A DNA stretch of 64,000 nucleotides, from the IMG/VR virus record IMGVR_UViG_2706794662_000007. The stretch is one strand, 5' to 3'. A program made the position numbers and the translations under genes. Shown in pieces: positions 35,871-50,719 of this stretch (positions within the stretch are counted from its first letter, which is position 1; every line of letters begins with the position of its first letter). The DNA comes from a virus. Lineage: Duplodnaviria > Heunggongvirae > Uroviricota > Caudoviricetes. A model generated the notes under the pieces. The model was not told where the DNA came from. It saw nothing but the letters and a program-made list of their open reading frames with translations, and searched no databases.

Positions 35871-36550
35871 TACATACGCTCCTTGTAGTAGTCGACCAGC
35901 CACACCAGAGCCTCACCAGCGTTCTCCATTTCATTACCGGTGTTAATAGCCTGCTCTTTGATGATGTTTTTTATGGTTTCTGCAACACGATCTGACGCAT
36001 CGAAAGTTACTTTGAAGCGCATGGTCTGATGTTCCGCCCCCACACGTTCGGTTTTCTCTCGTTTGTCGGTATCGACAGGCTCATCACTACCACGAGACAA
36101 CGCCTCCAGTGCTTCAAGGTCGATTGCCGCCTCTTTTGCTAAAACCATCGAGATTTCGTCGTCATACGGGGCGATTTCAGACAGTTGATAGTCAAGTTCT
36201 GACTGAATTTCTTCAATGAAGCGTTGCAATGCGATTTGGTCGTCTTCACCGTATCGCTCGTTGTCCACCAGTGACATCTGTTTAGCTACGACATCGCTAA
36301 TTTTGCCCACAGAAAGCACTGGAACCGTTGAAATTCCTTGCTCAATAGCGGCACGCCAGCGATGTTCGCCGCCGAGGATTTCAAAAAATCCATCTTCAAG
36401 TTCACGAGCCAAAATTGGCTTAAAAAAGCCCAATTTTTCGATAGAACCTTTCAGTTTTTCGAAATTCTGCGCACCAACCGAATTGGTGTTCCAGGTATTC
36501 GGGCGAAGGTTGGCAACATCAACCTGCAAAATCGTGATTTTTACGTCCAT
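35870..36550 (-). CDS. ParB N-terminal domain protein, paralogous neighbour
   Basis: ParB box II-like ILGGEHRWRAA; ATG at 36550 preferred over GTG at 36568. Confidence 0.6.
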   Translation of the reverse strand: MDVKITILQVDVANLRPNTWNTNSVGAQNFEKLKGSIEKLGFFKPILARELEDGFFEILGGEHRWRAAIEQGISTVPVLSVGKISDVVAKQMSLVDNERYGEDDQIALQRFIEEIQSELDYQLSEIAPYDDEISMVLAKEAAIDLEALEALSRGSDEPVDTDKREKTERVGAEHQTMRFKVTFDASDRVAETIKNIIKEQAINTGNEMENAGEALVWLVDYYKERM

Positions 36551-36632: not shown

Positions 36633-38192
36633 ATGACTGTTCGGATTGTATCTAACGCAGTAAATGCGCTTATTTCTGGCGCAGATGACAAGGTAAAGCA
36701 ACTGGTGCAGCAAATGTTGAGCTACGAAGTCGAGGCTGGCGACTGGAAGGGCACAAGCACAATGTTCAACTGGAGCAAAAACTCGTTCCCTGCTGGCTTT
36801 GCCAAGCCCGTGGCGGCTAATTTGAACAAGGCGGGCATCAAATGTGTTCATATCCGCAAAGACAAAGCCCCGGCGCTTGGTAAACCAAATCCGGCGGTTA
36901 ACCCATTCCCATACAATCCTGATTATGCGTATCAGGATCAGACTGTGGAAACACTGGTTCGAGAGGGAATGATGATTGCGCAGATCGCTACTGGTGGCGG
37001 GAAATCTAACGTTGCCTGCAAAGCAGCTGCACGTATCGGTCGAATGACATTATTTTTAACAACCCGCTCTGTTCTGATGTTTCAAATGGCCGAAAACTTC
37101 CAGAGATCCATCGACTACCGCGCCAAAAATGGCGAACCGTGGTTAAAAGACCAAAAGGTTGGAGTCATTGGCTCGGGTGAGTTCCAGGTATCACGACATA
37201 TCAACGTCGCTACAGTTCAAACTCTTGCAAGTTTCCTCGAAGAACCACCACGCGATGCAACACCAGATAAGAAAAGCTACCACCTCAAACGTCGGGAGTT
37301 GGTGAAACGCTTCCTTTCAAGTGTCTCTCTTCTTATTCTGGAAGAGGCGCATGAGTCTTCAGGCTCAAATTTCTATGACATCGCCAGATTATGTGTGAAC
37401 GCAGACTATCGTCTGGCGCTTACAGCCACGCCGTTCATGAAGGATTCGACGGAAGCCAACATGCGCCTGATGGCGGTGGCCGGGCGAATTGAAATTAAAG
37501 TCACAGAAAAGTATCTGATTGATCGAGGCATTCTGGCAAAGCCGTACTTCCTTTATCATAAAGTTGCCTACAAGCCAGACGAGGCCAGAATCAAGGCCGA
37601 ACTTGCCAACAAACACCTCAATTTTAGAGTTGGTATGAGCACCGCCTACCAAAAGGCTTATCAGTTGGGGATCGTGTATAATTTGGGACGTAACGAGGCC
37701 ATTGTGCGCGAAGCATTGCTCTATAAGCAACATTCTCTCAATTGTATGACTCTGGTTCGCCTTAAACGCCACGGGCAAATCCTGATGGAAATGATGAAAG
37801 AGTCCGGCCTTAGAGTTGACTTCATCTATGGGGAATCTAACCAGGCGACAAGGCAAGCAAAGCTGAACAGTTTAGCGTCTGGAGAAATAGATGTTTTAAT
37901 AGGCTCGACTATTCTGGATGTCGGTGTTGATGTGCCAAGCGTTGGTGCGGTCATTCTTGCTGGTGGTGGGAAAGCAGAAGTTGAAATGAGGCAGCGTGTC
38001 GGTCGTGGCTTACGAGCCAAGAAGAATCAGGCAAACGTGTGTTTTATCACTGATTTCATTGACATTAGCAACAAATACCTGTTGTCTCACTCTTATGAGC
38101 GAAAACACATCATCGACACCACACCTGGCTTTGCAGAAGGTGTATTGCCTATTGATGGCGCATTCGATTTTGGAGTTCTGAAACGAGATTAG
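36633..38192 (+). CDS. superfamily-2 DEAD/DEAH-box helicase
   Basis: motif I ATGGGKS, motif II LILEEAHE, motif III TATP, motif VI QRVGRGLR. Confidence 0.7.
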   Translation: MTVRIVSNAVNALISGADDKVKQLVQQMLSYEVEAGDWKGTSTMFNWSKNSFPAGFAKPVAANLNKAGIKCVHIRKDKAPALGKPNPAVNPFPYNPDYAYQDQTVETLVREGMMIAQIATGGGKSNVACKAAARIGRMTLFLTTRSVLMFQMAENFQRSIDYRAKNGEPWLKDQKVGVIGSGEFQVSRHINVATVQTLASFLEEPPRDATPDKKSYHLKRRELVKRFLSSVSLLILEEAHESSGSNFYDIARLCVNADYRLALTATPFMKDSTEANMRLMAVAGRIEIKVTEKYLIDRGILAKPYFLYHKVAYKPDEARIKAELANKHLNFRVGMSTAYQKAYQLGIVYNLGRNEAIVREALLYKQHSLNCMTLVRLKRHGQILMEMMKESGLRVDFIYGESNQATRQAKLNSLASGEIDVLIGSTILDVGVDVPSVGAVILAGGGKAEVEMRQRVGRGLRAKKNQANVCFITDFIDISNKYLLSHSYERKHIIDTTPGFAEGVLPIDGAFDFGVLKRD

Positions 38193-38194
38193 TT

Positions 38195-38473
38195 ATGAGC
38201 GAAAAGAAAACAACTTATTGTCAGGTGGCATTGTCCGATAAGGCCAATGACAAACTTGGAAAGTTTCAAATGAAACTAAAAGAAAAAAACATCAAAATGT
38301 CTAAGGCTGAAGTTATCAATACCATTCTGGAGACGATGACGATGGCTGAATTTGACAAAGTTTCATCTGCCGTTGGAGTCTCTGCTAAGGCTCGTGAGAA
38401 AATCATGCGCATCTATGAGAACTCTAATATGACAAAGGAAGATTTAGAGCAAATTCTAAGCAAACTGCCGTAA
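38195..38473 (+). CDS. hypothetical protein, 92 aa, AT-rich
   Basis: ORF track; 3-nt gap after helicase gene. Confidence 0.4.
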   Translation: MSEKKTTYCQVALSDKANDKLGKFQMKLKEKNIKMSKAEVINTILETMTMAEFDKVSSAVGVSAKAREKIMRIYENSNMTKEDLEQILSKLP

Positions 38474-38654
38474 TATTGGATTCTTAGTCAATTTCAGAAT
38501 TGCCAGACTTGAAGAGCTAATAGACAGAGTGCGGCAACAACGCCTTTGCCGCACAGCTTTTAGAGAAAACACGTCTGCTATTTACAGTTGAAAACTTATC
38601 GTTTGAGACTATTGGATATTTATAATTCTACTTTGCAATAATCGCTGTATAAAA

Positions 38655-39248
38655 ATGAAACGTTCGTTACTTCTTGCTTGTATATACCTCTCGTCATTTT
38701 CCGCCAATGCGTTGTCAGATATCGTCTCCGACATGCAAAAAACGTACAGCATGTATACTTCTGAAGACGTACTAAAATACGAATCACGAGGTCTGATTCA
38801 ACCAGTCTGGTTCAGATTCTCAGATAACGCAGAAGAAACAATACTTAATGCAGGAAAAGAAAGATTACGGTTGCAAATTAACGGAACCGCTGTACCAGAA
38901 AACGTTAATGTAAGCTCTGACGAAGCCATGAAGCCATCTGGAATTGTTTTGGAAGTTCAAGACGGCACACTTTACTGTGATGAAATGGCTACAACAGGTT
39001 GCCAAGTAAACATTAGGGTTGGCAATGAAGAGCCTATCGTTACTTACGCCAAGGCTGAAGGGAATACAAGTGGAAAGGTATTGTTTATCGATGAAAATAC
39101 CTCAAAACGTATCGTTCGTGACATACAGAAAACAGCGAACTCTAAATCCGTCGATAAAAAAATCTATGTTGAGGTTCCCTTCTTTGTCGTTGGTAACAAA
39201 GAATTTAAATTTGGGTTGCTGAAAACACCTCTAAGAGTATCAGAATGA
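38655..39248 (+). CDS. secreted/periplasmic protein with signal peptide
   Basis: N-terminus MKRSLLLACIYLSSFSANA with AxA cleavage site. Confidence 0.5.
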   Translation: MKRSLLLACIYLSSFSANALSDIVSDMQKTYSMYTSEDVLKYESRGLIQPVWFRFSDNAEETILNAGKERLRLQINGTAVPENVNVSSDEAMKPSGIVLEVQDGTLYCDEMATTGCQVNIRVGNEEPIVTYAKAEGNTSGKVLFIDENTSKRIVRDIQKTANSKSVDKKIYVEVPFFVVGNKEFKFGLLKTPLRVSE

Positions 39249-39766
39249 GAACATTGGACATCACCTACGGCATACCGGCTGAAGTATGGCCGCGAGACTA
39301 CGAACATGCTGAACGTACCTTGCTCTTCTGGCGGAGTGCAAAATTTCCTGTAAGAGTCACTCTCGAAGACGGCCAAGTGTTTTGCATGTATGTCTACGGG
39401 CTATTGAGCGCAAGAAATAAGCTGAACCTCACACCAGATCCGCTTAGCAACACAAATCGTATAAGGCTCCCTCTTGAGCGCATTAGCACAATTGAGTCGG
39501 GCATAGAAGAGGTTGACACTTCATTCACAGGTCGACTAACGCTAAACAATGAACAGATGGTTAATCAGCCATCACGTCGTGACTTTTTTAAGATATGTCG
39601 TCAGGCTTACCAAAACGGCAAATCTATAAGGGTCTACATGGCAGACGGTCGCGAAATTGAGGGAACGTCAGATGGCGTTGACGCCTGTCTAGTCACACTT
39701 AAGTTGGAAGACGGTAGAAAAATACTTATTTTCTTCGATTGGGTTGAACGAATCCTTCCGTTTTAA
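39245..39766 (+). CDS. hypothetical protein, 173 aa
   Basis: ATGA overlap with preceding secreted-protein gene. Confidence 0.45.
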   Translation: MRTLDITYGIPAEVWPRDYEHAERTLLFWRSAKFPVRVTLEDGQVFCMYVYGLLSARNKLNLTPDPLSNTNRIRLPLERISTIESGIEEVDTSFTGRLTLNNEQMVNQPSRRDFFKICRQAYQNGKSIRVYMADGREIEGTSDGVDACLVTLKLEDGRKILIFFDWVERILPF

Positions 39767-39959
39767 TTTCTATAAGGGTAATAACCGGCTAAGTCCGGTT
39801 ATTATTTTACATGCCATTCATTTTATACTCTTTCAATTCTACCCCGTATAAATATATAAGGTCTAAAGCCGGAATCGATTATTTATTTAGGGAACACCCT
39901 CGACGATCTAACATTTATTTCTAGGACTTTCATCCCTGCAAAAAAACTTAAAAAAACAC

Positions 39960-39988
39960 TTGCAATCTTTTTTCGCGTATCGATAATT
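39960..39988 (+). promoter_or_regulatory. sigma70-like promoter (TTGCAA, 17-bp spacer, ATAATT)
   Basis: hexamers read directly; ~75 nt upstream of 40064 gene. Confidence 0.45.
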
Positions 39989-40063
39989 GAACGCATCAGG
40001 AACGAGTGCAAAACACTTTCTTTCTTGAGTTAAATTTTAATATTTATACTAAGGAATAAAATC

Positions 40064-40714
40064 ATGGCTAACATTATCATTTCTAAAAAGTCCATCATTG
40101 AAGCTGCATCTATTGTATCCGACGAACTGCGCGAAAAAGCAGATCTGGCAACTCAAACATATAACGAACATTATAAAAATGGTACGCACACTAAAGCAGA
40201 CAAAGCAAATATGCAAGCTGCGACCACTAAACTTGCTTACTTCATCAACAACGTCGTAAACGCTGTAGAAGACGAAAAATTATGCTCTGTTTTCTACTAT
40301 GCGATTAAAGCAAGCAAACAAGCGCCAGAAGTATTTTTTCGTGACGCTATGACTAATAGTTATTCACTGGAAAAACTGGTTTATCTGGTTAAATCAATTA
40401 AAGCTGGAAAATGTGTTTATTCCGTCGCTGATATGTCTGGATCTCGTGTATTCGCTTTAATCGATATGATTAACGACGAGATCGACACGTTCACGAATGG
40501 CGCTGTTTTCGATTTAATGAATGAAGCCAAAAAAGCGTGTGAAATTAAATTGGACGCTGGCTATACTCAAGCTAACCAGCTAATCAATCTTTGCGAACGT
40601 CTCGGACTTGTTGAGAAAGTCAAAGGAATGGGAAGCGCCAAAGCTGGTACACAGCAATATCGCTTTATCAAGAATGATTTCTACAATTATCTAGCTGACG
40701 CTTTCAAAGCGTAA
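40064..40714 (+). CDS. hypothetical protein, 216 aa, AT-rich cargo gene
   Basis: ORF track; own promoter and downstream hairpin. Confidence 0.5.
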   Translation: MANIIISKKSIIEAASIVSDELREKADLATQTYNEHYKNGTHTKADKANMQAATTKLAYFINNVVNAVEDEKLCSVFYYAIKASKQAPEVFFRDAMTNSYSLEKLVYLVKSIKAGKCVYSVADMSGSRVFALIDMINDEIDTFTNGAVFDLMNEAKKACEIKLDAGYTQANQLINLCERLGLVEKVKGMGSAKAGTQQYRFIKNDFYNYLADAFKA

Positions 40715-40763
40715 TTAATGGAATCAAGCGCCCACTATGGGCGCTTTAAAGGAGCTTTAAAAA

Positions 40764-40967
40764 ATGGTCAGCTATGACAAGATCCGCGCGGAATATCGCG
40801 CAAAGTATCGCGCTTATAAACTAGAATTAATCAATGATTTAATCGCGCAACGCGACCAATTAAATTTTACGTTTTCTGATTTGCTTAACAGCAAACGAGA
40901 TTGCAAGCGTAAACGTGAATACTTACGTTTAAGCGCATTAATCGGAAAACTTCATAATTCTATTTAA
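40764..40967 (+). CDS. small hypothetical protein, 67 aa
   Basis: ORF with SD AAAGGAG upstream. Confidence 0.35.
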   Translation: MVSYDKIRAEYRAKYRAYKLELINDLIAQRDQLNFTFSDLLNSKRDCKRKREYLRLSALIGKLHNSI

Positions 40968-40987
40968 TTTTTTTAAGGAGCTTAATC

Positions 40988-41215
40988 ATGGTTATTTTCA
41001 TCTCTGGCGTAAATATCAATAATCATACTCTTGTTTATGATATTGCTGGTTTAGCTGGATATGCTCTAAGTTCTGAAGTGGTTGATGAAACAACGTTTAA
41101 AATAAACATCAATGACGTAGAACATAGAGCGCGCGCAGGAATCAATGAAGCAGATGTTACTTTAATGCTTCAAGAATTTTTAAACGCTGGTTTTAATATT
41201 CGCTTAGAAAAATAA
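40988..41215 (+). CDS. small hypothetical protein, 75 aa
   Basis: ORF with SD TAAGGAG upstream. Confidence 0.35.
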   Translation: MVIFISGVNINNHTLVYDIAGLAGYALSSEVVDETTFKININDVEHRARAGINEADVTLMLQEFLNAGFNIRLEK

Positions 41216-41223
41216 AAACAATA

Positions 41224-41246
41224 GCGCCCATAGTGGGCGCTTTTTT
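41224..41246 (+). terminator. rho-independent terminator
   Basis: GCGCCCA-TAG-TGGGCGC hairpin followed by TTTTTT. Confidence 0.65.
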
Positions 41247-41268
41247 CGTTTCCAATACTCCCACCATA

Positions 41269-41293
41269 ACGCGCCAATGATGGCGCGTTTTTT
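41269..41293 (+). terminator. second tandem terminator-like hairpin
   Basis: CGCGCCAATGATGGCGCG followed by TTTTTT. Confidence 0.55.
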
Positions 41294-41579
41294 ATTGTCT
41301 TTGACTCACTCCAACAACATAAAAATAAGCGCCAAAATAACGCCATAGACGCGCTTTTATATCCTTGCCAGTACATACCCATTACTTAACACATTAACGC
41401 GCTTAAAACGCGTTATATTGCGCTATAGCGCATAGTTAATCATTGGCTTTTAGTCTTGCTATGTGATCCGCGTTTATTTGTCGGCGCGGATCGGCATTTT
41501 GTTTTGTTCCGTATCCGCTCGCGTATTATGTGCGCGTGATTTTTCACATAATCACACCACTTAATCACGTATGCGATTA

Positions 41580-41843
41580 NNNNNNNNNNNNNNNNNNNNN
41601 NNNNNNNNNNNNNNNNNNNNNNNNNNNNNNNNNNNNNNNNNNNNNNNNNNNNNNNNNNNNNNNNNNNNNNNNNNNNNNNNNNNNNNNNNNNNNNNNNNNN
41701 NNNNNNNNNNNNNNNNNNNNNNNNNNNNNNNNNNNNNNNNNNNNNNNNNNNNNNNNNNNNNNNNNNNNNNNNNNNNNNNNNNNNNNNNNNNNNNNNNNNN
41801 NNNNNNNNNNNNNNNNNNNNNNNNNNNNNNNNNNNNNNNNNNN
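41580..41843. other. run of 264 N
   Basis: literal n characters. Confidence 1.
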
Positions 41844-42324
41844 ACACGCCATCAAGGATGTGGATGCGGTTGCTTGCGTATACATTCAGCATAAAGTTAG
41901 CGCAAAACAGTTTCCATGTATCAACGCCAGCGGTATACGTAATGTTTTTGCATTTAATTGCATTGTTGGCGATCCGCATCCCCTGCGATACTGCTTCATC
42001 GTCGGAAAATTTGAACGACGATTGAGTTTTAATCCAGACAGAAATCTGCGTAGCGAACTCAATCAGCTTGGACTGGCAGAATCGCCCGGAGCGCACCGGA
42101 AAGACGAACGTTCCGAATCCAGAATTTACCACATACGCTTTCTCAAATACCCGCGAGTAACGACGATTGCCAATGATGTCGCGTGCAATAATGCATTTTT
42201 CTTGTGCTGACAGTTCTACCGTCTCATTGTCGCGCCATGCACCAAGTACTCGTTTTTCAATGTCAGAGAACGTTACAGCGATATTGCCATGTGCGGGTGC
42301 GTTTACAGTAGCGATAAAATTCAT
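41844..42324 (-). CDS. hypothetical protein (N-terminal 160 aa visible, 3' part masked)
   Basis: ORF from ATG 42324 into N-run; family-1 motif 20 nt upstream. Confidence 0.45.
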
Positions 42325-44622: not shown

Positions 44623-44841
44623 TTAATCTTGGTCGTCCGGGAACTCGCTGTGTACCGCGCCCACCAGCTCCCGCTTTTCATCTTCACTCAGCAGGTGCCA
44701 GATATCCTTCCCTTTGGGCGATTCCCCTTCTGCCGGGACGAACGACCACAACTTGCGGTACAACTCCGGCCCCACTGCATCCAGACACTCAGCCAGGGAA
44801 TCCACGCCCCACACCTCAACCGTCACAGGCATCTTAATCAT
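44623..44841 (-). CDS. hypothetical protein, 72 aa
   Basis: ORF track. Confidence 0.35.
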   Translation of the reverse strand: MIKMPVTVEVWGVDSLAECLDAVGPELYRKLWSFVPAEGESPKGKDIWHLLSEDEKRELVGAVHSEFPDDQD

Positions 44842-45226
44842 CTCTTCATCCTCACTTCGTTTCTATAACGTCTAAATATGCTGTTTACTTGTTGGTGTTA
44901 TTATCGCAATAAGATAAAGGCGAAAAAGGATTTTATGTCGGGAAAGCCAGGCTGGGCAGTGAATATCCGGGAACGACACGAGAGCCAGTATTTACGATAT
45001 TCTGCTCTACGCGCGCCGCGGGGCTGGTGGGTAGAATAATCCTCTCCCCGAAAACCTACTGAAATCGATTGTGACCCGCTGGCTGTCTGGCACAATTACG
45101 CTGTATCTGGCATTCAGAGGGAATCCAGCGGTAAGCAAGTCAGCCTGCACGTGAGCGCCTCTCTTCTTCCCGCACATTACAGGTGGGTAGCTGCAACTCT
45201 CTCTCTCTCGCTATACCGGTACGCCG

Positions 45227-45362
45227 CCGTTCCAGAACCGGCATCGAGCCTTTTCCCGAAATCCACACAGGCAACTCGACCGTTTCCCTGAAAATCCCCA
45301 GCCGTTCCCCCGAAGGCAACCCAGCCGTTTCTGTAGCTGGATGCAACCTTTTCCCTGTATGG
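45227..45362. repeat. iteron-like array: six direct repeats of CCGTT(T)CC-type units at ~22-bp spacing
   Basis: copies near 45227, 45249, 45280, 45302, 45325, 45347 read directly; inside ORF-poor region. Confidence 0.5.
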
Positions 45363-46412
45363 ACCGAAGGCTGACCGTAGGGGGTGTTACGGGGGATAAA
45401 ATCAGGAGTTGAATAAATACGAAAAAGGAGGCGACCCCCCTCCTTCCCTCTCCACTTATACATACCTGGCTTCTTCGCTATACATGTTGTGTTTTATCTG
45501 TCTCAACCTCTCTATAGGCGTTAATGCTCACTCCTTCCAGAATGTTCTATACGGCGACTATTTCTGTTGGTGAATTGGGTGTGTTGTTTTCTCTGTCGGT
45601 GTATGTGGTTTCGTTAGTTTTGCGGTGGTTCTTCTATGGGGGTGTTCTCGTCGTTTTGGTGATTGTTCTTCTCCGTGTATGGAGTAATGGCAGGTGGGCG
45701 ATTGCTTTCGTTATTGTGTTTGAGTTGTTTGTCTGGAGTGTGTGAAGGCTTTTGTAGTTATTCGTGTATTGGGTAATGGCGTTTCCCGTGATTGTTATGT
45801 TTCGTGTCTTTTGGGATTGAGAGAAACCTTGCGGTTACAGGCTTCGTTAGGGTTTCAGCGGTTCAGGTGTTTCTTCGCTGTTTGGGTAATGGCGTGTCGT
45901 GGGTATCGCGCGTATGAATGTTTTCGGATTGCCTGTGAAAGTTAGGTTGGTTGTCCGGTAGCCTGGGGAGAAGAGGTGGGTCTTTTCGGTAGCCTGCCAT
46001 AAAGAGGTTGGTTGTTTTGGGTAATGGCATATGTGTTATTTGGTTGTTTTGTTATGCCTGAAAATAAGTTGTTTATATGGTTGTGTAACGCAACGGGAGC
46101 GATTTTGAGCGTGTGTTTTTGTTGGTAGTGTGTTGAGTCGTCTGTGGTGAAATTTGGACGCTGTGGCGCTATCTGCTGCGTAGAATTACGGGTATAAGAA
46201 GTGATGTGTGATAACGTCAATTTTTTAGACCAAATCGGGAGAAAGCGTTGATGTTTCGTTGATCTGTTATTTAGTTGTTTTCTTATTGGTATAAACAACC
46301 ATAACCTATTGATATTTAATGATGTGATTGCTGGTATGGGAGGGTAGTAGTGGCGATCAACGGGTTCTTATAGAAAAGAATCAAATTGTGACCGCCATTA
46401 TCAACGGTTTGA

Positions 46413-47075: not shown

Positions 47076-47095
47076 TGCGAAGAGAGGTTGTTTAA

Positions 47096-49034
47096 TTACT
47101 TAACCTGGTGGCCAGGTTTAGCACCAGCATCCGGGCTTAACAGGAAGATATCTTTCCCGCCAGGACCGGCAGCCATCACCATGCCTTCAGAGATACCGAA
47201 GCGCATTTTACGTGGTGCCAGGTTAGCCACCATAATGGTGTGACGACCAATCAGTGCCTGTGGATCTGGATAAGCGGAACGGATGCCTGAGAAGACATTA
47301 CGCTTTTCACCACCGAGATCCAGCGTCAGGCGAAGCAGTTTGTCAGAACCTTCGACAAACTCCGCGTTTTCAATCAGCGCCACACGCAGGTCAACTTTGG
47401 CGAAGTCGTCAAAGGTGATGGTTTCCTGAATCGGTTCGTCAGCCAGTGGGCCAGTTACCGGTGCAGCTGTGGCTTTCACTTCTTCTTTGGATGCTTCCAC
47501 CAGTGCTTCCACCTGTTTCATATCGATACGGTTATACAGTGCCTTGAACGGATTCACTTTATGGCCCAGAAGCGGTTGCTGGATACCATCCCAGGTCAGT
47601 TCTGTATTCAGGAATGCTTCTGCACGTTCAGTCAGTTTCGGCAGTACCGGTTTCAGGTACGTCATCAGCACGCGGAACAGGTTAATGCCCATAGAGCAAA
47701 TCGCCTGCAGATCTGCATCGCGACCTTCCTGCTTCGCCACCACCCACGGAGCCTGTTCATCGACATAGCGATTAGCCAGGTCAGCCAATGCCATGATTTC
47801 ACGGATAGCTTTACCAAATTCGCGGCTTTCCCATGCTTCGCCAATCACTTCAGCGGCATCAGTAAAGGTTTTGTACAGTTGCGGGTCAGCCAGTTCGCTT
47901 GTCAGCACGCCGTCAAAACGCTTGTTGATAAAGCCTGCATTACGGGAGGCCAGGTTAACCACTTTGTTCACGATATCGGCATTCACGCGCTGAACGAAAT
48001 CTTCCAGGTTGAGATCGATATCATCAATGCGCGAAGAGAGTTTCGCAGTGTAGTAGTAACGCAGGCTGTCAGCGTCAAAATGATTCAGCCAGGTGCTGGC
48101 TTTAATAAAGGTGCCGCGAGACTTGGACATCTTCGCGCCGTTCACCGTCACATAGCCGTGAACAAACAGGTTGGTCGGCTTGCGGAAGTTGCTGCCTTCC
48201 AGCATGGCAGGCCAGAACAGACTGTGGAAGTAAACGATATCTTTGCCGATGAAGTGGTACAGCTCGGCGGTGGAGTCTTTCTTCCAGTATTCGTCGAAGC
48301 TTACGCTGTCGCCGCGCTTGTCGCACAGATTCTTGAAAGAACCCATGTAGCCAATCGGCGCGTCCAGCCAGACGTAGAAATATTTGCCCGGCGCGTTCGN
48401 NNNNNNNNNNNNNNNNNNNNNNNNNNNNNNNNNNNNNNNNNNNNNNNNNNNNNNNNNNNNNNNNNNNNNNNNNNNNNNNNNNNNNNNNNNNNNNNNNNNN
48501 NNNNNNNNNNNNNNNNNNNNNNNNNNNNNNNNNNNNNNNNNNNNNNNNNNNNNNNNNNNNNNNNNNNNNNNNNNNNNNNNNNNNNNNNNNNNNNNNNNNN
48601 NNNNNNNNNNNNNNNNNNNNNNNNNNNNNNNNNNNNNNNNNNNNNNNNNNNNNNNNNNNNNNNNNNNNNNNNNNNNNNNNNNNNNNNNNNNNNNNNNNNN
48701 NNNNNNNNNNNNNNNNNNNNNNNNNNNNCTCTTCGCTGTGCGTCGAGTGATAGTTGTCATAGCTGATGTTAAAGCCTGCGAAATCAGTCTGATGTTCCTG
48801 ACTCATTTCGCCAATCATCTGTTCCGGTGTGATACCAAGCTGCTGTGCTTTCAGCATGATTGGCGTACCGTGGGCATCGTCGGCACAGATGAAATTAACC
48901 TCGTGGCCGCGCATTCGCTGGTAACGAACCCAGACATCAGCCTGGATGTGCTCCAGCATATGGCCGAGGTGGATTGAGCCGTTAGCGTACGGCAGCGCGC
49001 ACGTCACCAGAATTTTCTTCGCGACTTGGGTCAT
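47096..49034 (-). CDS. metG: methionine--tRNA ligase (interrupted by N-run; frame differs on the two sides of the mask)
   Basis: N-terminus [29 protein letters not shown] and C-terminus ...[24 protein letters not shown] recognised as enterobacterial MetRS. Confidence 0.9.
48390..48728. other. run of 339 N inside metG
   Basis: literal n characters. Confidence 1.
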
Positions 49035-49191
49035 AGTAGGCATTACTTCTTTGTAGTGAAAAGGGGCTTGATAGTAACAAAATGGCCTTATGTCTGCCAT
49101 GTGATAACAGCATTTCTCATAAATGATTAAATGTCGTAGCTGGAGTACACTACAAGGCGACAATTGCGCAAATTAAAATAAAGGAGACGGG

Positions 49192-50292
49192 ATGAGCGAG
49201 TCCAAATCGCCGGATGCCCTGAGAGCAATGGTAGCCGGTACGCTGGCTAATTTTCAGCACCCAACCCTGAAACACAACTTGACTACGCTTAAAGCGTTAC
49301 ACCATGTTGCGTTGATGGATGACACACTGCATGTCGAACTAATCATGCCTTTCGTGTGGAATAAGCCTTTTGAAGACCTGAAAGAGCAATGTAGTGGTGA
49401 TCTGCTCCGTATCACTGGCGCAAAGGCTATTGACTGGAAGCTGTCGTACAACATTGCCACGCTTAAGCGCGTCAAAAACCAACCAGGCATTAATGGCGTT
49501 AAGAACATTATCGCCGTCAGCTCAGGCAAGGGCGGCGTGGGTAAATCCTCCACAGCAGTAAACTTGGCACTGGCTTTGGCTGCTGAAGGTGCGAAAGTTG
49601 GTATTTTGGATGCCGATATCTATGGTCCATCAATTCCAACCATGCTGGGCGCGGAAAACCAACGTCCAACCTCACCGGACGGTACTCACATGGCACCTAT
49701 CATGTCTCATGGCCTGGCAACCAACTCTATTGGTTATCTGGTCACCGATGACAATGCAATGGTGTGGCGTGGACCGATGGCGAGCAAGGCGCTGATGCAG
49801 ATGTTGCAGGAAACACTGTGGCCTGATCTGGACTATCTCGTTCTCGATATGCCACCGGGCACTGGTGATATTCAATTGACGCTGGCGCAGAACATTCCTG
49901 TAACTGGTGCGGTTGTGGTAACTACGCCGCAAGACATCGCGCTGATCGATGCGAAGAAAGGCATTGTGATGTTCGAAAAAGTCGAAGTGCCGGTACTGGG
50001 TATCGTTGAAAACATGAGTGTGCATATTTGCAGTAACTGCGGTCATCACGAGCCAATTTTTGGCACCGGTGGAGCACAGAAACTGGCCGAGAAATACAAC
50101 ACGCAGTTGTTAGGCCAAATGCCACTTCATATCTCTCTTCGTGAAGATCTGGATAACGGAACACCAACCGTTATTAGTCGTCCAGATAGCGAATTTACGG
50201 CTATTTATCGTGACCTCGCAGATCGCGTTGCTGCCCAAATGTATTGGCAAGGTGAAGTAATACCTGGCGAAATCGCATTCCGCGCAGTGTGA
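49192..50292 (+). CDS. apbC: iron-sulfur cluster carrier protein ApbC/Mrp
   Basis: 366 aa, Walker A SGKGGVGKS, CxxC near C-terminus; divergent from metG as in enterobacterial chromosomes. Confidence 0.9.
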   Translation: MSESKSPDALRAMVAGTLANFQHPTLKHNLTTLKALHHVALMDDTLHVELIMPFVWNKPFEDLKEQCSGDLLRITGAKAIDWKLSYNIATLKRVKNQPGINGVKNIIAVSSGKGGVGKSSTAVNLALALAAEGAKVGILDADIYGPSIPTMLGAENQRPTSPDGTHMAPIMSHGLATNSIGYLVTDDNAMVWRGPMASKALMQMLQETLWPDLDYLVLDMPPGTGDIQLTLAQNIPVTGAVVVTTPQDIALIDAKKGIVMFEKVEVPVLGIVENMSVHICSNCGHHEPIFGTGGAQKLAEKYNTQLLGQMPLHISLREDLDNGTPTVISRPDSEFTAIYRDLADRVAAQMYWQGEVIPGEIAFRAV

Positions 50293-50298
50293 TAAAAA

Positions 50299-50317
50299 GG
50301 CGGTGCATTGCACCGCC
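50299..50317. terminator. hairpin GGCGGTGCATTGCACCGCC; U-tract only on minus strand
   Basis: read directly; lies between apbC stop and UmuD'-like gene stop. Confidence 0.45.
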
Positions 50318-50329
50318 TAATCAGTTCTC

Positions 50330-50719
50330 CTACATCACAGGACAATCATCAAACTCGCCACTTCTTGCGTCGTTGATAATGTGAGTGATCACACCAAACA
50401 CGGCATTGCTGCCCGTGCATCCATCGTCATCCTTTGGCAATGCTTCCTTCTTACCGGTTCTTAAATCCTCCAGATGCTGACGTGGAGACTTCCGGTATCT
50501 TTTTACGCGATATTCCCCATCCAGAGCGCATACAAGCAGAGAACCATCAACCGGGGTAAGTGAGGAATCAACCACCAGCAATGCACCCTGTAATATTCCC
50601 TCACGATGATGACTATCAGCTGCTCTCATGAAGTAGGTCGCTGAAGGATGTCTAATTATCTGCTGATCAAGAGAAATACGGCTCTCAGCATAATCCGCCG
50701 CAGGAGAAGGGAAGCCCAT
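50330..50719 (-). CDS. UmuD'-like S24 peptidase-fold protein (starts at the position equivalent to the UmuD self-cleavage site)
   Basis: MGFPSPAADY...HPSATYF matches UmuD from Gly25 onward; Ser and Lys of dyad retained (AADS, RVKR). Confidence 0.75.
   Translation of the reverse strand: MGFPSPAADYAESRISLDQQIIRHPSATYFMRAADSHHREGILQGALLVVDSSLTPVDGSLLVCALDGEYRVKRYRKSPRQHLEDLRTGKKEALPKDDDGCTGSNAVFGVITHIINDARSGEFDDCPVM

What the first reader, a model, noticed from the sequence alone, without database searches (positions are those of the whole stretch)
38195..41460. AT-rich plus-strand cargo cluster with its own sigma70 promoter and a hairpin array
Six plus-strand ORFs of unknown function, including a signal-peptide protein, lie in markedly AT-rich DNA. 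A near-consensus promoter sits at 39960-39988. Two copies of GCGCCCA-N3-TGGGCGC (40728-40746 and 41224-41240) bracket the two smallest ORFs, followed by further GC-rich palindromes at about 41269, 41394 and 41420. This looks like a moron or immunity-type insert; the hairpins could be terminators or recombination sites.
Basis: seen in the sequence. Interest (0 to 1): 0.55.

Follow-up and report, generated by a model that had tools for sequence, protein, structure and literature searches.

The report
Phage-plasmid genes with terminator-bounded cassettes
This AT-rich stretch of an SSU5-type phage-plasmid from Shigella sonnei is not one imported cargo island: it mixes conserved regulator-like genes, two slots that swap small accessory genes, and ordinary transcription terminators, so it is mostly ordinary with a few modestly new details.

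Summary
The sequence features are real. The window is an SSU5/pHCM2-type phage-plasmid, 100% identical to Shigella sonnei plasmids.

The six ORFs are not one insert. In 84 related loci, O1, O3 and O4 keep a fixed order with the flanking helicase and the minus-strand gene D1. O2 sits in a hypervariable slot full of signal-peptide and lipoprotein genes. O5 and O6 are optional cassettes.
- O3 is a full-length FljA-family protein (Pfam PF03614, E 1e-68).
- O4 is lineage-restricted, with a modelled C-terminal winged helix.
- O6 has relatives in virulent T5-like and PAK_P1-like phages.

In the related phage-plasmid Cyrano, published RNA-seq puts the O4 and O6 homologues at the detection floor in lysogens. 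The O1 homologue is about 12-fold above background. So the promoter-driven O4-O5-O6 unit is not a lysogen-expressed moron.

The hairpins at 41223 and 41268 are tandem, two-way intrinsic terminators where opposing transcription meets. The copy at 40726 is the same stem without its U-tract. In 71 versions of the slot, the last stem always keeps the T-run and internal stems are followed by a ribosome-binding site. Cassettes therefore lie between stem and U-tract. This resembles T4-type PeSL shuffling more than integrons.

Interest is low to moderate.

The parts
36633..38192 (+). DEAD/ResIII (UvsW-like) helicase. It is context: O1 starts 2 nt after its stop codon, so O1 belongs to this transcription unit.
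   Evidence: Pfam ResIII, DEAD and Helicase_C. RefSeq annotation. The Cyrano homologue CYRAN_118 reads 46 against a background of 9.8.
38195..38473 (+). O1, 92 aa. Conserved but strongly allelic small protein, expressed in lysogens of a relative. A ribbon-helix-helix-like N-terminus is possible but weakly supported.
   Evidence: Present in about all relatives at 53-100% identity. phrog_1466. CYRAN_117 is 11.7x background. dN/dS 0.12-0.17. No Pfam or PDB match. AF2 model pLDDT 54.6, helices only.
38529..38554 (.). GC-rich hairpin after O1 (GTGCGGCAA-N8-TTGCCGCAC, -16 kcal/mol), terminator-like on both strands.
38613..38642 (+). Promoter-like site TGGATA-18-AATAAT with an extended -10 TG, upstream of O2.
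   Evidence: consensus match only
38655..39248 (+). O2, 197 aa, Sec-type signal peptide. Accessory gene occupying hypervariable slot A between O1 and O3.
   Evidence: Present in a minority of relatives. In other relatives slot A is 115-2943 nt and holds other lipoprotein or signal-peptide genes. Only one phage record carries it. No Pfam or PADLOC hit.
39245..39766 (+). O3, 173 aa, FljA-family protein (repressor of phase-1 flagellin family). Its start overlaps the O2 stop (ATGA).
   Evidence: Pfam PF03614, E 1.4e-68, full length, 230 bits against a cutoff of 24. phrog_1444. Always directly upstream of O4. CYRAN_114 reads 18, rising about 8-16x in growing or intracellular cells.
39780..39803 (+). 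Terminator-like hairpin after O3 (AATAACCGG-CTAAGT-CCGGTTATT, then ATTTTA).
   Evidence: Conserved at 90% or more in 72 distinct relatives. -15.3 kcal/mol.
39960..39987 (+). Sigma-70-type promoter TTGCAA-16-GATAAT with an upstream A-tract. Drives O4-O5-O6 through a leader of about 70 nt.
   Evidence: Cyrano has identical hexamers, yet its downstream genes are silent in lysogens.
40064..40714 (+). O4, 216 aa. Backbone gene restricted to SSU5-type elements. Modelled as an N-terminal helical bundle plus a C-terminal winged helix; likely a DNA-binding protein.
40726..40746 (+). H1: AAGCGCCCA-CTA-TGGGCGCTT hairpin with no U-tract, followed directly by the O5 ribosome-binding site. A displaced terminator stem, now an intercistronic hairpin.
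40764..40967 (+). O5, 67 aa, optional cassette found only in SSU5-type elements.
   Evidence: phrog_6145, whose 'MIT transporter' label is not credible for a 67-aa soluble helical protein.
40988..41215 (+). O6, 75 aa, optional cassette. The family also occurs in virulent phages.
   Evidence: 37-42% identical homologues in Providencia T5-like phages (inside the terminal repeat, as a promoter-gene-terminator unit) and in Pseudomonas PAK_P1-like phages.
41223..41246 (.). H2: AGCGCCCA-TAG-TGGGCGCT plus T6. Intrinsic terminator of the O4 operon. The A-run on its left makes it terminator-like on the minus strand too.
   Evidence: (T-run after the last stem in 70 of 70 versions)
41268..41294 (.). T2: AACGCGCCA-ATGA-TGGCGCGTT plus T6, a second tandem terminator.
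   Evidence: (present in 68 of 69 distinct relatives; loops flip TTGT/ACAA and ATGA/TCAT)
41395..41432 (.). Palindromes TAACGCG-N7-CGCGTTA and TGCGCTATAGCGCA. In Klebsiella/Enterobacter-type relatives the homologous place holds 2-5 tandem 11-mers GCGCGTTTTAG.
41465..41492 (.). Palindrome GATCCGCG-N12-CGCGGATC (-18 kcal/mol), just outside the finding.
41580..41843 (.). Masked run (N). In identical plasmids its right half holds conserved block A: four GCCGTT(T/C/A)C(C/T) repeats 22, 33 and 48 nt apart, plus a hairpin abutting the D1 stop. A paralogous block B lies at 45225-45445.
   Evidence: No RNA-structure signal.
41842..42324 (-). D1, 160 aa. First gene of the converging minus-strand block; syntenic in relatives.

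Best explanation
The finding covers three backbone transcription units of an SSU5-type phage-plasmid, plus two accessory-gene slots. It ends at the point where plus-strand and minus-strand transcription converge.

(1) Helicase-O1 unit. It is transcribed in lysogens and stops at the 38529 hairpin.

(2) O2-O3 unit. Slot A carries a strain-specific exported protein, here O2. It is followed by the conserved FljA-family protein O3. By family analogy, O3 is an RNA-binding translational repressor.

(3) O4-O5-O6 unit. The conserved promoter at 39960 drives O4, a lineage-specific protein with a winged-helix C-terminal domain, and then the optional small genes O5 and O6. This unit is kept off in lysogens, so it most likely acts after induction or infection. 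O6-type proteins are also carried by virulent phages, in T5-like phages inside the terminal repeat.

The 'hairpin array' is mainly transcription termination. H2 and T2 are tandem intrinsic terminators that work in both directions at the convergence point. H1 is the same terminator stem separated from its U-tract, because the promoterless cassettes (ribosome-binding site, ORF, stem) sit between stem and U-tract. Transcription therefore reads through H1 into O5 and O6.

Recombination between the identical 17-21 nt stems, and possibly the shared TTTAAGGAGCTT ribosome-binding module, adds, removes or swaps cassettes.

Shown: the anatomy, synteny, variability, family membership of O3, the stem and T-run rule, and expression in a relative. 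Inferred: read-through at H1, stem-mediated recombination, early timing, and the molecular targets of O1, O3 and O4.
For: - Identity of the element: 100% match to S. sonnei plasmids and 80-93% to SSU5, Cyrano and Klebsiella phage-plasmids.
- Synteny of helicase, O1, O3, O4 and D1, with patchy O2, O5 and O6, in 84 loci.
- Slot B architectures in 71 distinct versions: H (8), H-O5-H (25), H-O6-H (16), H-O5-O6-H (17), H-O6-H-O6-H (2).
- The last stem is followed by a T-run in 70 of 70 versions. Internal stems are followed by a ribosome-binding site in 61 of 63.
- All states occur within each O4 clade.
- The base pair flanking the stem changes from A-T to G-C, and the stem extends to CAGC...GCTG in some relatives.
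- Stem energies are -14 to -16 kcal/mol. H1 has no U-run.
- The motif is non-random: 2 found against 0.01 expected.
- T2 is conserved in 68 of 69 versions.
- The O5 and O6 ribosome-binding modules are shared.
- O3 matches Pfam PF03614 at E 1.4e-68.
- O4 model and winged-helix matches.
- Cyrano RNA-seq with background 9.8: O4 homologue 5.9, O6 homologue 5.0 (the floor), O3 homologue 18, O1 homologue 114. Cyrano has the same promoter hexamers.
- O6 homologues occur in virulent phages, in PR1 inside the terminal repeat.
- Purifying selection on O1, O3, O4 and O5.
- Slot A diversity.
Against: - Expression evidence comes from one relative. Cyrano lacks O2 and O5, its O3 is 75% identical, and only LB and macrophage conditions were measured. 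No transcript ends are mapped anywhere.
- Silence of O4 could reflect H-NS silencing of AT-rich DNA rather than a phage lytic programme.
- Only two cassette families occupy slot B. In 18 of 20 two-cassette versions no stem separates the cassettes, so 'stem-mediated insertion' is a parsimonious reading, not a demonstrated mechanism.
- A perfect 7-3-7 palindrome could also be a protein operator.
- The winged-helix call for O4 rests on moderate structural scores, with no significant BFVD hit.
- No function is established for O1, O2, O4, O5 or O6.
Confidence: 0.6

Rival explanations
1. The whole 3.3 kb is one horizontally acquired moron or immunity island, with its own promoter and terminators. 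It would be expressed from the prophage to benefit or protect the host.
For: It is the lowest-GC 3.3-kb stretch of the window. It has a promoter and terminators. O2 carries a signal peptide. O1 and O3 homologues are expressed in Cyrano lysogens. The O1-O3 segment is strongly allelic between otherwise 99%-identical elements.
Against: O1, O3 and O4 are syntenic backbone genes across genera. O3 has average GC. There are at least three transcription units with internal terminators. The promoter-driven O4 unit is at the detection floor in lysogens. No PADLOC defence match.
Confidence: 0.08
2. The GCGCCCA-N3-TGGGCGC stems are sites for a site-specific recombinase. On this reading slot B is an integron-like cassette array.
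For: The cassettes are promoterless and each is bounded by the same palindrome. An extra stem lies between cassettes in H-O6-H-O6-H versions. Loop orientation flips between relatives.
Against: No integrase is adjacent; the only tyrosine recombinase is about 47 kb away in the plasmid record. The stems are 17-21 nt perfect palindromes, not 57-141 nt attC sites with extrahelical bases. Only two cassette families exist. The terminal stem always carries a T-run (70 of 70), as a terminator would. T2, which bounds no cassette, flips its loop in the same way, so flipping is a general palindrome property.
Confidence: 0.06
3. O4 plus the downstream non-coding zone (palindromes, 11-mer repeats, GCCGTTTCC block A) form a replication or segregation module. 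O4 would be a winged-helix initiator or adaptor that binds the repeats, insulated from transcription by the tandem terminators.
For: O4 has a winged-helix domain. O4 stays AT-rich in all relatives. It is silent in lysogens. The repeats are spaced by whole helical turns (22 and 33 nt) and are conserved in sequence while the spacers vary. The 11-mer copy number varies. There is no RNA-fold signal. Block B sits next to four GGGTAATGGC repeats in a 1.5-kb gene-free stretch. No Rep gene is annotated in the PLSDB table, which is incomplete.
Against: O4 has no homology to any known initiator. The repeats are not shown to bind anything. These elements type as IncFIB (PMC7969092), which implies a RepFIB-type replicon elsewhere. 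The synonymous-site constraint in O4 is only slightly above that of its neighbours.
Confidence: 0.15
4. The biologically important activity is lysogenic conversion of motility. O3, like Salmonella FljA, would shut off host flagellin (fliC) translation, with O2 as an accompanying envelope factor.
For: O3 is a full-length FljA-family member. [quoted passage not shown] The O3 homologue is expressed in lysogens and rises in macrophages.
Against: O3 is conserved next to O4 in elements of Klebsiella, Yersinia pestis and Shigella. From my own knowledge these hosts make no flagella. No flagellin or invertase gene is linked. O3 alleles diverge to 63-75% between close relatives, which suggests co-evolution with an element-borne target. 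No direct comparison with chromosomal FljA was possible. The one 'chromosomal' hit, P0175, looks like an integrated SSU5-type remnant.
Confidence: 0.25

Closest known systems
SSU5 / pHCM2 / pMT1 supergroup of enterobacterial phage-plasmids (Pfeifer et al. 2021, PMC7969092); closest studied relative Escherichia phage Cyrano (pLF82; PMC9928086)
   Same: 80-100% DNA identity and the same gene order. All six ORFs fall in PHROG families built from these elements.
   Different: Nothing differs at the level of the element. This copy carries the O2 allele of slot A and the O5+O6 state of slot B. About 40 nt of its O4 leader are replaced relative to most relatives.
FljA, repressor of phase-1 flagellin (Pfam PF03614)
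   Same: O3 matches the profile over its full length, far above the family threshold.
   Different: O3 is not linked to fljB or hin. It is carried by a phage-plasmid and conserved in non-flagellated hosts. It is always paired with O4. Its target is unknown.
PeSL regulatory cassettes of T4-type phages (Arbiol et al. 2010, PMC2839356; PMC4122927)
   Same: Short conserved stem-loop terminators flank small non-essential ORFs in a plastic region. Closely related genomes differ by gain, loss or swap of the ORFs between repeats.
   Different: PeSLs combine an early promoter with the stem-loop. Here the repeated unit has no promoter: only a stem at the 3' end and a shared ribosome-binding module at the 5' end. 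The cassettes depend on read-through from the O4 promoter. Only one slot and two cassette families are involved. Mini-circles were not tested.
Phage morons (extra gene with its own promoter and terminator, expressed from the prophage; definition from my own knowledge of Hendrix/Juhala, not fetched here)
   Same: O2 and the other slot A genes are strain-specific insertions between conserved genes, and many encode envelope proteins. In a T5-like phage, O6 is a promoter-gene-terminator unit.
   Different: O5 and O6 lack their own promoters and are not expressed in lysogens of the relative. O1, O3 and O4 are not optional.
Integron gene cassettes with attC sites
   Same: Promoterless ORFs, each ending in an imperfectly conserved palindrome, are expressed from one upstream promoter.
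   Different: There is no integron integrase. The stems are far shorter than attC and are perfect palindromes. The terminal stem is a canonical terminator.

Membership tests
FljA / Flag1_repress (PF03614) | Full-length match to the family profile above the curated threshold | tested here: met
   O3 residues 5-170 match profile positions 1-170 of 170, 230.5 bits against a cutoff of 24, E 1.4e-68. All 80 homologues carry PF03614.
FljA / Flag1_repress (PF03614) | Operon or linkage with a phase-2 flagellin gene (fljB) and an invertase (hin or pinR) | tested here: not met
   No flagellin or invertase appears in the annotated plasmid. The neighbours are O2 and O4.
FljA / Flag1_repress (PF03614) | Binds the fliC mRNA leader and blocks flagellin translation | not testable with these tools
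   Needs RIP or EMSA and FliC immunoblot or motility assays. Conservation in non-flagellated hosts argues for another or an additional target.
Rho-independent (intrinsic) terminator | GC-rich stem, short loop, and an immediately following U-tract | tested here: met
   H2 (41223-41241 plus T6) and T2 (41268-41289 plus T6). A T-run follows the last stem in 70 of 70 relatives. T2 is present in 68 of 69.
Rho-independent (intrinsic) terminator | The same features for the upstream copy H1 (40726-40746) | tested here: not met
   The stem is intact (-15.4 kcal/mol) but is followed by TAAAGGAGC, the O5 ribosome-binding site. Internal stems are followed by a ribosome-binding site in 61 of 63 cases.
Moron | Present in some members of a phage group and absent from close relatives | tested here: met
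   Met for O2, O5 and O6. Not met for O1, O3 and O4.
Moron | Own promoter and terminator, and expressed from the repressed prophage | tested here: not met
   The O4-O5-O6 unit has a promoter and terminators, but its Cyrano homologues are at the detection floor in lysogens. O5 and O6 have no promoter of their own. For O2 this is not tested, because Cyrano lacks it.
Integron cassette array | Adjacent integron integrase and attC sites (57-141 nt, R''/L''-L'/R' with extrahelical bases) | tested here: not met
   No integrase lies within the window. The only one is about 47 kb away in the record. The repeats are 17-21 nt perfect palindromes.
PeSL-type mobile regulatory cassette (T4-type phages) | A composite early-promoter plus stem-loop motif repeated around ORFans | tested here: not met
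   The stem-loop is repeated but no promoter accompanies it. The only promoter-like site of the operon is at 39960.
PeSL-type mobile regulatory cassette (T4-type phages) | Indels or replacements between close relatives are bounded by the repeats | tested here: met
   All slot B states are bounded by the stem after O4 and by the stem plus T-run.
Winged helix-turn-helix DNA-binding proteins (O4) | Winged-helix fold in a confident model, with matches to solved winged-helix regulators | tested here: inconclusive
Iteron-type origin or centromere (non-coding zone right of the finding) | Clustered direct repeats conserved in sequence, with helical-turn spacing | tested here: met
   Four GCCGTT(T/C/A)C(C/T) repeats spaced 22, 33 and 48 nt. 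They are conserved across 20 diverged relatives while the spacers vary.
Iteron-type origin or centromere (non-coding zone right of the finding) | A cognate initiator or ParB binds the repeats, and replication or segregation depends on them | not testable with these tools
   Requires EMSA or ChIP and origin mapping.

The most novel reading that the evidence does not exclude
The lysogen-expressed, highly allelic pair O1 (possible ribbon-helix-helix protein) and O3 (FljA-family RNA-binding repressor) form a specificity or immunity-like switch. The switch would keep the adjacent O4 operon off partly at the translational level. O4 would be a new winged-helix initiator or activator acting on the neighbouring iteron zone (palindromes, 11-mers, GCCGTTTCC blocks A and B) to start lytic development or replication. 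On this reading the FljA family is ancestrally a mobile-element post-transcriptional regulator, later borrowed for flagellar phase variation.
Probability: 0.1. Interest if true: 0.65.

Novelty: new variant of a known kind. Interest (0 to 1): 0.3.

Why it matters
SSU5-type phage-plasmids are among the commonest phage-plasmids in clinical Enterobacteriaceae, yet their lysogeny and lytic control is essentially uncharted.

This analysis turns six 'hypothetical proteins' into a testable map. It shows which genes are backbone regulators (O1, O3, O4), which positions accept accessory genes (slots A and B), and where transcription units end. It also corrects a tempting misreading: AT-rich DNA plus a promoter does not by itself make a moron.

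Placing promoterless cassettes between a terminator stem and its U-tract is a simple, general way for a phage to add genes to an operon. The stem is kept as a recombination handle. The pattern may be worth looking for elsewhere.

Conservation of an FljA-family protein in elements of non-flagellated hosts suggests that the family does more than control flagellin.

Tried and rejected
- Known RNA families. Rfam found nothing at gathering score in the window. A permissive scan of the locus gave only sub-threshold terminator look-alikes: MicX 34 bits against 75, Hrs1 32 against 56.
- Structured RNA in the masked conserved block. Fold z-scores were -1.4 and -0.5. Sequence is conserved with variable spacers, so an RNA gene is rejected in favour of protein-binding repeats.
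- Defence systems. There were no PADLOC hits for O1-O6 or D1.
- NCBIfam: nothing.
- O1 as ribbon-helix-helix. Profile searches of PDB and Pfam gave nothing credible. The AF2 model has pLDDT 54.6, too poor for a fold search. This is kept only as a by-eye lead.
- O4. There was no PDB sequence match and no significant BFVD match. The afdb50 library was unavailable. The exhaustive HMMER search found only 23 clusters, none with a Pfam domain.
- DNA-level constraint inside O4, such as an internal origin. Synonymous divergence (pS 0.56-0.71) is only slightly below that of the helicase (0.75-0.80), so there is no clear signal.
- Comparison with a genuine chromosomal FljA. The word-indexed search returned only phage-plasmid-borne relatives. 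The single chromosomal hit, P0175, looks like an integrated SSU5-type remnant: its locus also carries 92-, 76- and 124-aa genes, the sizes of O1, O6-type and D2.
- Integron or attC link for SSU5-type elements. PMC9892861 does not mention one.
- Shared terminator between O6 and its T5-like homologue. The hairpins are unrelated.

Full report
**What the window is.** The 38195-41579 stretch is 100% identical to plasmids of Shigella sonnei of about 107-109 kb. It is 80-93% identical to Salmonella phage SSU5, Escherichia phage Cyrano (pLF82) and Klebsiella phage-plasmids. In all, 764 plasmid records match, nearly all typed non-mobilizable. The surrounding annotation fits this. A minus-strand virion and packaging module ends with two ParB-like genes at 36550. 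A short plus-strand island follows, made of a DEAD/ResIII helicase and the six ORFs. A minus-strand block of small genes starts at D1, 41842-42324. The finding therefore ends where plus- and minus-strand transcription converge.

**Checking the observation.** All six ORFs are present and are annotated in RefSeq. The region is 38.8% GC against 45.7% for the window, and it is the lowest of all 3266-nt windows. The AT-richness is uneven: O3 is 45.8%, O4 38.7%, O5 36.8% and O6 32.9%.
- The promoter is TTGCAA-16-GATAAT at 39960-39987, matching 9 of 12 consensus positions. The scan found fewer such sites than in shuffles (7 against 11.2), so the consensus match alone carries no weight.
- Its -10 region, part of its -35 and an upstream A-tract are conserved in 72 distinct relatives.
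- The motif GCGCCCA-N3-TGGGCGC occurs exactly twice, at 40728-40744 and 41224-41240, against 0.01 expected.
- The further palindromes are at 41268-41289, 41395-41415 and 41419-41432.
- A run of 264 N at 41580-41843 hid the next 256 nt. I read that sequence from the identical plasmid CP104415.

**The cluster is a mosaic, not one insert.** I fetched 84 related loci: 79 IMG/VR contigs and species-representative genomes including Yersinia pestis, Kluyvera and Buttiauxella. I mapped each protein onto them.
- Helicase, O1, O3, O4 and D1 are present in the same order in essentially all loci. Identities are 90-100% for the helicase, 74-100% for O4 in most relatives (53% in the most distant locus, L084), 57-100% for O3 and 53-100% for O1.
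- All four tested genes are under purifying selection, with dN/dS 0.02-0.19.
- O2 is present in a minority. The O1-O3 interval (slot A) ranges from 115 to 2943 nt. In other relatives it holds at least ten unrelated ORF families, several with lipoprotein or Sec signals.
- O5 and O6 are optional.
- Between elements whose helicase and D1 are 99% identical, O1 drops to 86% nucleotide identity and O3 to 70%. The O1-slot A-O3 segment is therefore exchanged as alleles.
- O4 keeps 39-42% GC in every relative, even where the backbone is 50-54%. Its AT-richness is an intrinsic conserved property, not a sign of recent import.

**What the proteins are.**
- O3 matches Pfam PF03614 (repressor of phase-1 flagellin, FljA) over its full length, E 1.4e-68. 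[quoted passage not shown] O3 is not linked to a flagellin or invertase gene. It is conserved next to O4 in Klebsiella, Y. pestis and Shigella elements. From my own knowledge these hosts make no flagella, so an element-borne target is plausible.
- O6 has 37-42% identical homologues in virulent Pseudomonas PAK_P1-like phages and in Providencia T5-like phages. In phage PR1 the homologue is a promoter-gene-terminator unit inside the terminal repeat. From my own knowledge, that is the pre-early region of T5-like phages.
- O5 is confined to SSU5-type elements.
- O1 has no detectable family, and its model is unreliable. Its N-terminal pattern resembles a ribbon-helix-helix by eye only.
- O2 has a Sec-type signal peptide and no homologues outside a few E. 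coli and Shigella elements.
- None of the proteins matches a PADLOC defence model.

**Expression in a relative.** For Cyrano, Table S1 of PMC9928086 gives a background of 9.8 normalised reads in LB lysogens.
- O4 homologue (CYRAN_113): 5.9. O6-type homologue (CYRAN_112): 5.0. Both are at the detection floor. They rise to log2 values of only about 4.4-5.7 inside macrophages at 6 h.
- O3 homologue (CYRAN_114): 18, rising about 8-16-fold in growing or intracellular cells.
- O1 homologue (CYRAN_117): 114, or 11.7 times background.
- Helicase: 46.

Cyrano has the same TTGCAA-16-GATAAT promoter, so this promoter is held silent in lysogens. The O4 unit is not a moron. It is more likely an induction or infection-phase operon. 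H-NS silencing of AT-rich DNA is an alternative that I cannot exclude.

**The hairpins.** H2 (41223-41241 plus T6) and T2 (41268-41289 plus T6) are canonical intrinsic terminators. A-runs on their left make them terminator-like on the minus strand too. H1 (40726-40746) has the same stem (-15.4 kcal/mol) but no U-tract. The O5 ribosome-binding site follows it directly.

Across 71 distinct versions of the O4-D1 interval, the architectures are:

| Architecture | Versions |
|---|---|
| H | 8 |
| H-O5-H | 25 |
| H-O6-H | 16 |
| H-O5-O6-H | 17 |
| H-O6-H-O6-H | 2 |
| H-O6-O6-H | 1 |

Two more versions did not fit this scheme: the hairpin search pattern missed a stem in each.

- The last stem is followed by a T-run in 70 of 70 versions. 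Internal stems are followed by a ribosome-binding site in 61 of 63.
- Where no cassette is present, the single stem abuts the T-run directly after O4.
- All states occur within each O4 clade, so gain and loss are recurrent.
- The pair flanking the stem changes from A-T to G-C, and the stem extends to CAGC...GCTG in some relatives. This supports selection for pairing.
- O5 and O6 start with a shared TTT(A)AAGGAGCTT module, which resembles O4's own TAAGGA...ATCATG start region.
- The loops of both H and T2 flip between reverse-complementary forms in relatives: CTA/TAG, TTGT/ACAA and ATGA/TCAT. The two window copies being exact reverse complements is therefore a general palindrome flip, not evidence for an invertible segment.

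The simplest reading is that promoterless cassettes lie between the terminator stem and its U-tract. That converts the upstream stem into a read-through intercistronic hairpin. The repeated stems serve as short homologies for cassette gain, loss and exchange.

**Comparison with known systems.** The closest described mechanism is modular shuffling between PeSL promoter-plus-stem-loop motifs in T4-type phages (PMC2839356). Here the repeat lacks a promoter and only one slot with two cassette families is involved. It is not integron-like. There is no nearby integrase; the only one is about 47 kb away. The stems are too short and too perfect to be attC sites.

**Beyond the finding.** The non-coding zone 41290-41843 is conserved in blocks.
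- It contains AGTACATACCCATTAC, several palindromes, and, in Klebsiella/Enterobacter-type relatives, 2-5 tandem 11-mers GCGCGTTTTAG.
- Inside the masked run lies a block of about 150 nt with four GCCGTT(T/C/A)C(C/T) repeats spaced 22, 33 and 48 nt, plus a hairpin at the D1 stop.
- A paralogous block lies at 45225-45445, 69% identical in a longer pairwise alignment spanning both blocks. It is followed by four GGGTAATGGC repeats in a 1.5-kb GT-rich stretch without annotated genes.
- Both blocks are conserved throughout the family. One relative (L081) lacks the 3.3-kb gene block between them.
- There is no RNA-structure or Rfam signal.

These look like protein-binding iterons for an origin, a centromere or an operator. 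Their binder is unknown, and O4 is one candidate.

**Verdict.** The terminators and recombination-prone hairpins hold, and O2, O5 and O6 are accessory. The cluster as a whole is backbone, and its promoter-driven unit is lysogen-silent. Novelty is modest. It lies in a terminator-stem-bounded, promoterless cassette slot, and in an FljA-family protein fixed in phage-plasmids of non-flagellated hosts.

Noticed in passing
window 41580-41843 (masked; read from L002 7386-7641): The N-run hides a family-wide conserved block of about 150 nt. It has four GCCGTT(T/C/A)C(C/T) repeats spaced 22, 33 and 48 nt, and a hairpin GAGAAAGGGCC-GTTAC-TGGCCCTCTTCTC at the D1 stop. The N-run is 264 nt, but the identical plasmid has 256 nt there, so coordinates to its right are shifted by 8 relative to that plasmid.
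   Followed up: partly
window 45225-45445 and 45680-46030 (within the gene-free stretch 44832-46403): A paralogue of the masked block (69% identical in a longer pairwise alignment spanning both blocks, same repeat order) lies here. It is followed by four GGGTAATGGC repeats at 45682, 45771, 45884 and 46019, in a 1.5-kb GT-rich stretch with strong strand asymmetry and no annotated CDS. It is conserved in all relatives checked and is a candidate origin, centromere or regulatory region.
   Followed up: partly
L081 (IMGVR_UViG_2869154154_000004), 1700-2400 nt after the O4 start: This relative lacks the 3.3-kb minus-strand gene block (D1-D3 and others). It goes from one GCCGTTTCC block straight into the GGGTAATGGC repeats, as expected from a deletion between the two directly repeated blocks.
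   Followed up: no
window 41223-41241 and 41268-41289; relatives L004-L088: The loops of both terminator hairpins flip between reverse-complementary forms in closely related elements (CTA/TAG, TTGT/ACAA, ATGA/TCAT) while the stems stay constant.
   Followed up: yes
region homologous to window 41390-41430 in Klebsiella/Enterobacter-type loci (e.g. L058, L049): Tandem 11-nt repeats GCGCGTTTTAG occur in 2-5 copies. The copy number differs between relatives. The Shigella/E. coli type has palindromes there instead.
   Followed up: no
window 38195-39766 compared with L012, L014, L030: Allelic replacement of O1-slot A-O3. O1 is 86% and O3 70% nucleotide-identical, while the flanking helicase and D1 are 99% or more identical. 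At least four O3 allele classes (100, 84, 75 and 67% amino-acid identity) occur among otherwise near-identical E. coli elements.
   Followed up: partly
window 40005-40044: About 40 nt of the O4 leader differ from nearly all relatives (35-50% identity, flanked by 80-100%). The segment partly repeats the promoter region (AAAACACTTGCAATCTT against AAAACACTTTCTTTCTT). Most relatives have CATCGAAAGCGA...CGCTAACGA there.
   Followed up: partly
window 47087-50380: The phage-plasmid encodes a full-length methionyl-tRNA synthetase (metG) and an ApbC/MinD-like ATPase. Both are also present in Cyrano (CYRAN_100, CYRAN_99), so they belong to the element rather than being a recent chromosomal capture. The ATPase is 9x above background in Cyrano lysogens.
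   Followed up: no
L093 (E. coli chromosome CP125919.1, 386158-396682): A 48%-identical FljA-family gene lies in an E. coli chromosome among genes of 92, 76 and 124 aa. These are the sizes of O1, O6-type and D2, so this looks like an integrated and degraded SSU5-type segment.
   Followed up: no
window 40764-40967 (O5; PHROG 6145; SSU5 annotation): The label 'MIT family metal ion transporter CorA', propagated from the SSU5 record into PHROGs, sits on a 67-aa soluble, helical, highly charged protein. It is almost certainly an annotation error.
   Followed up: partly
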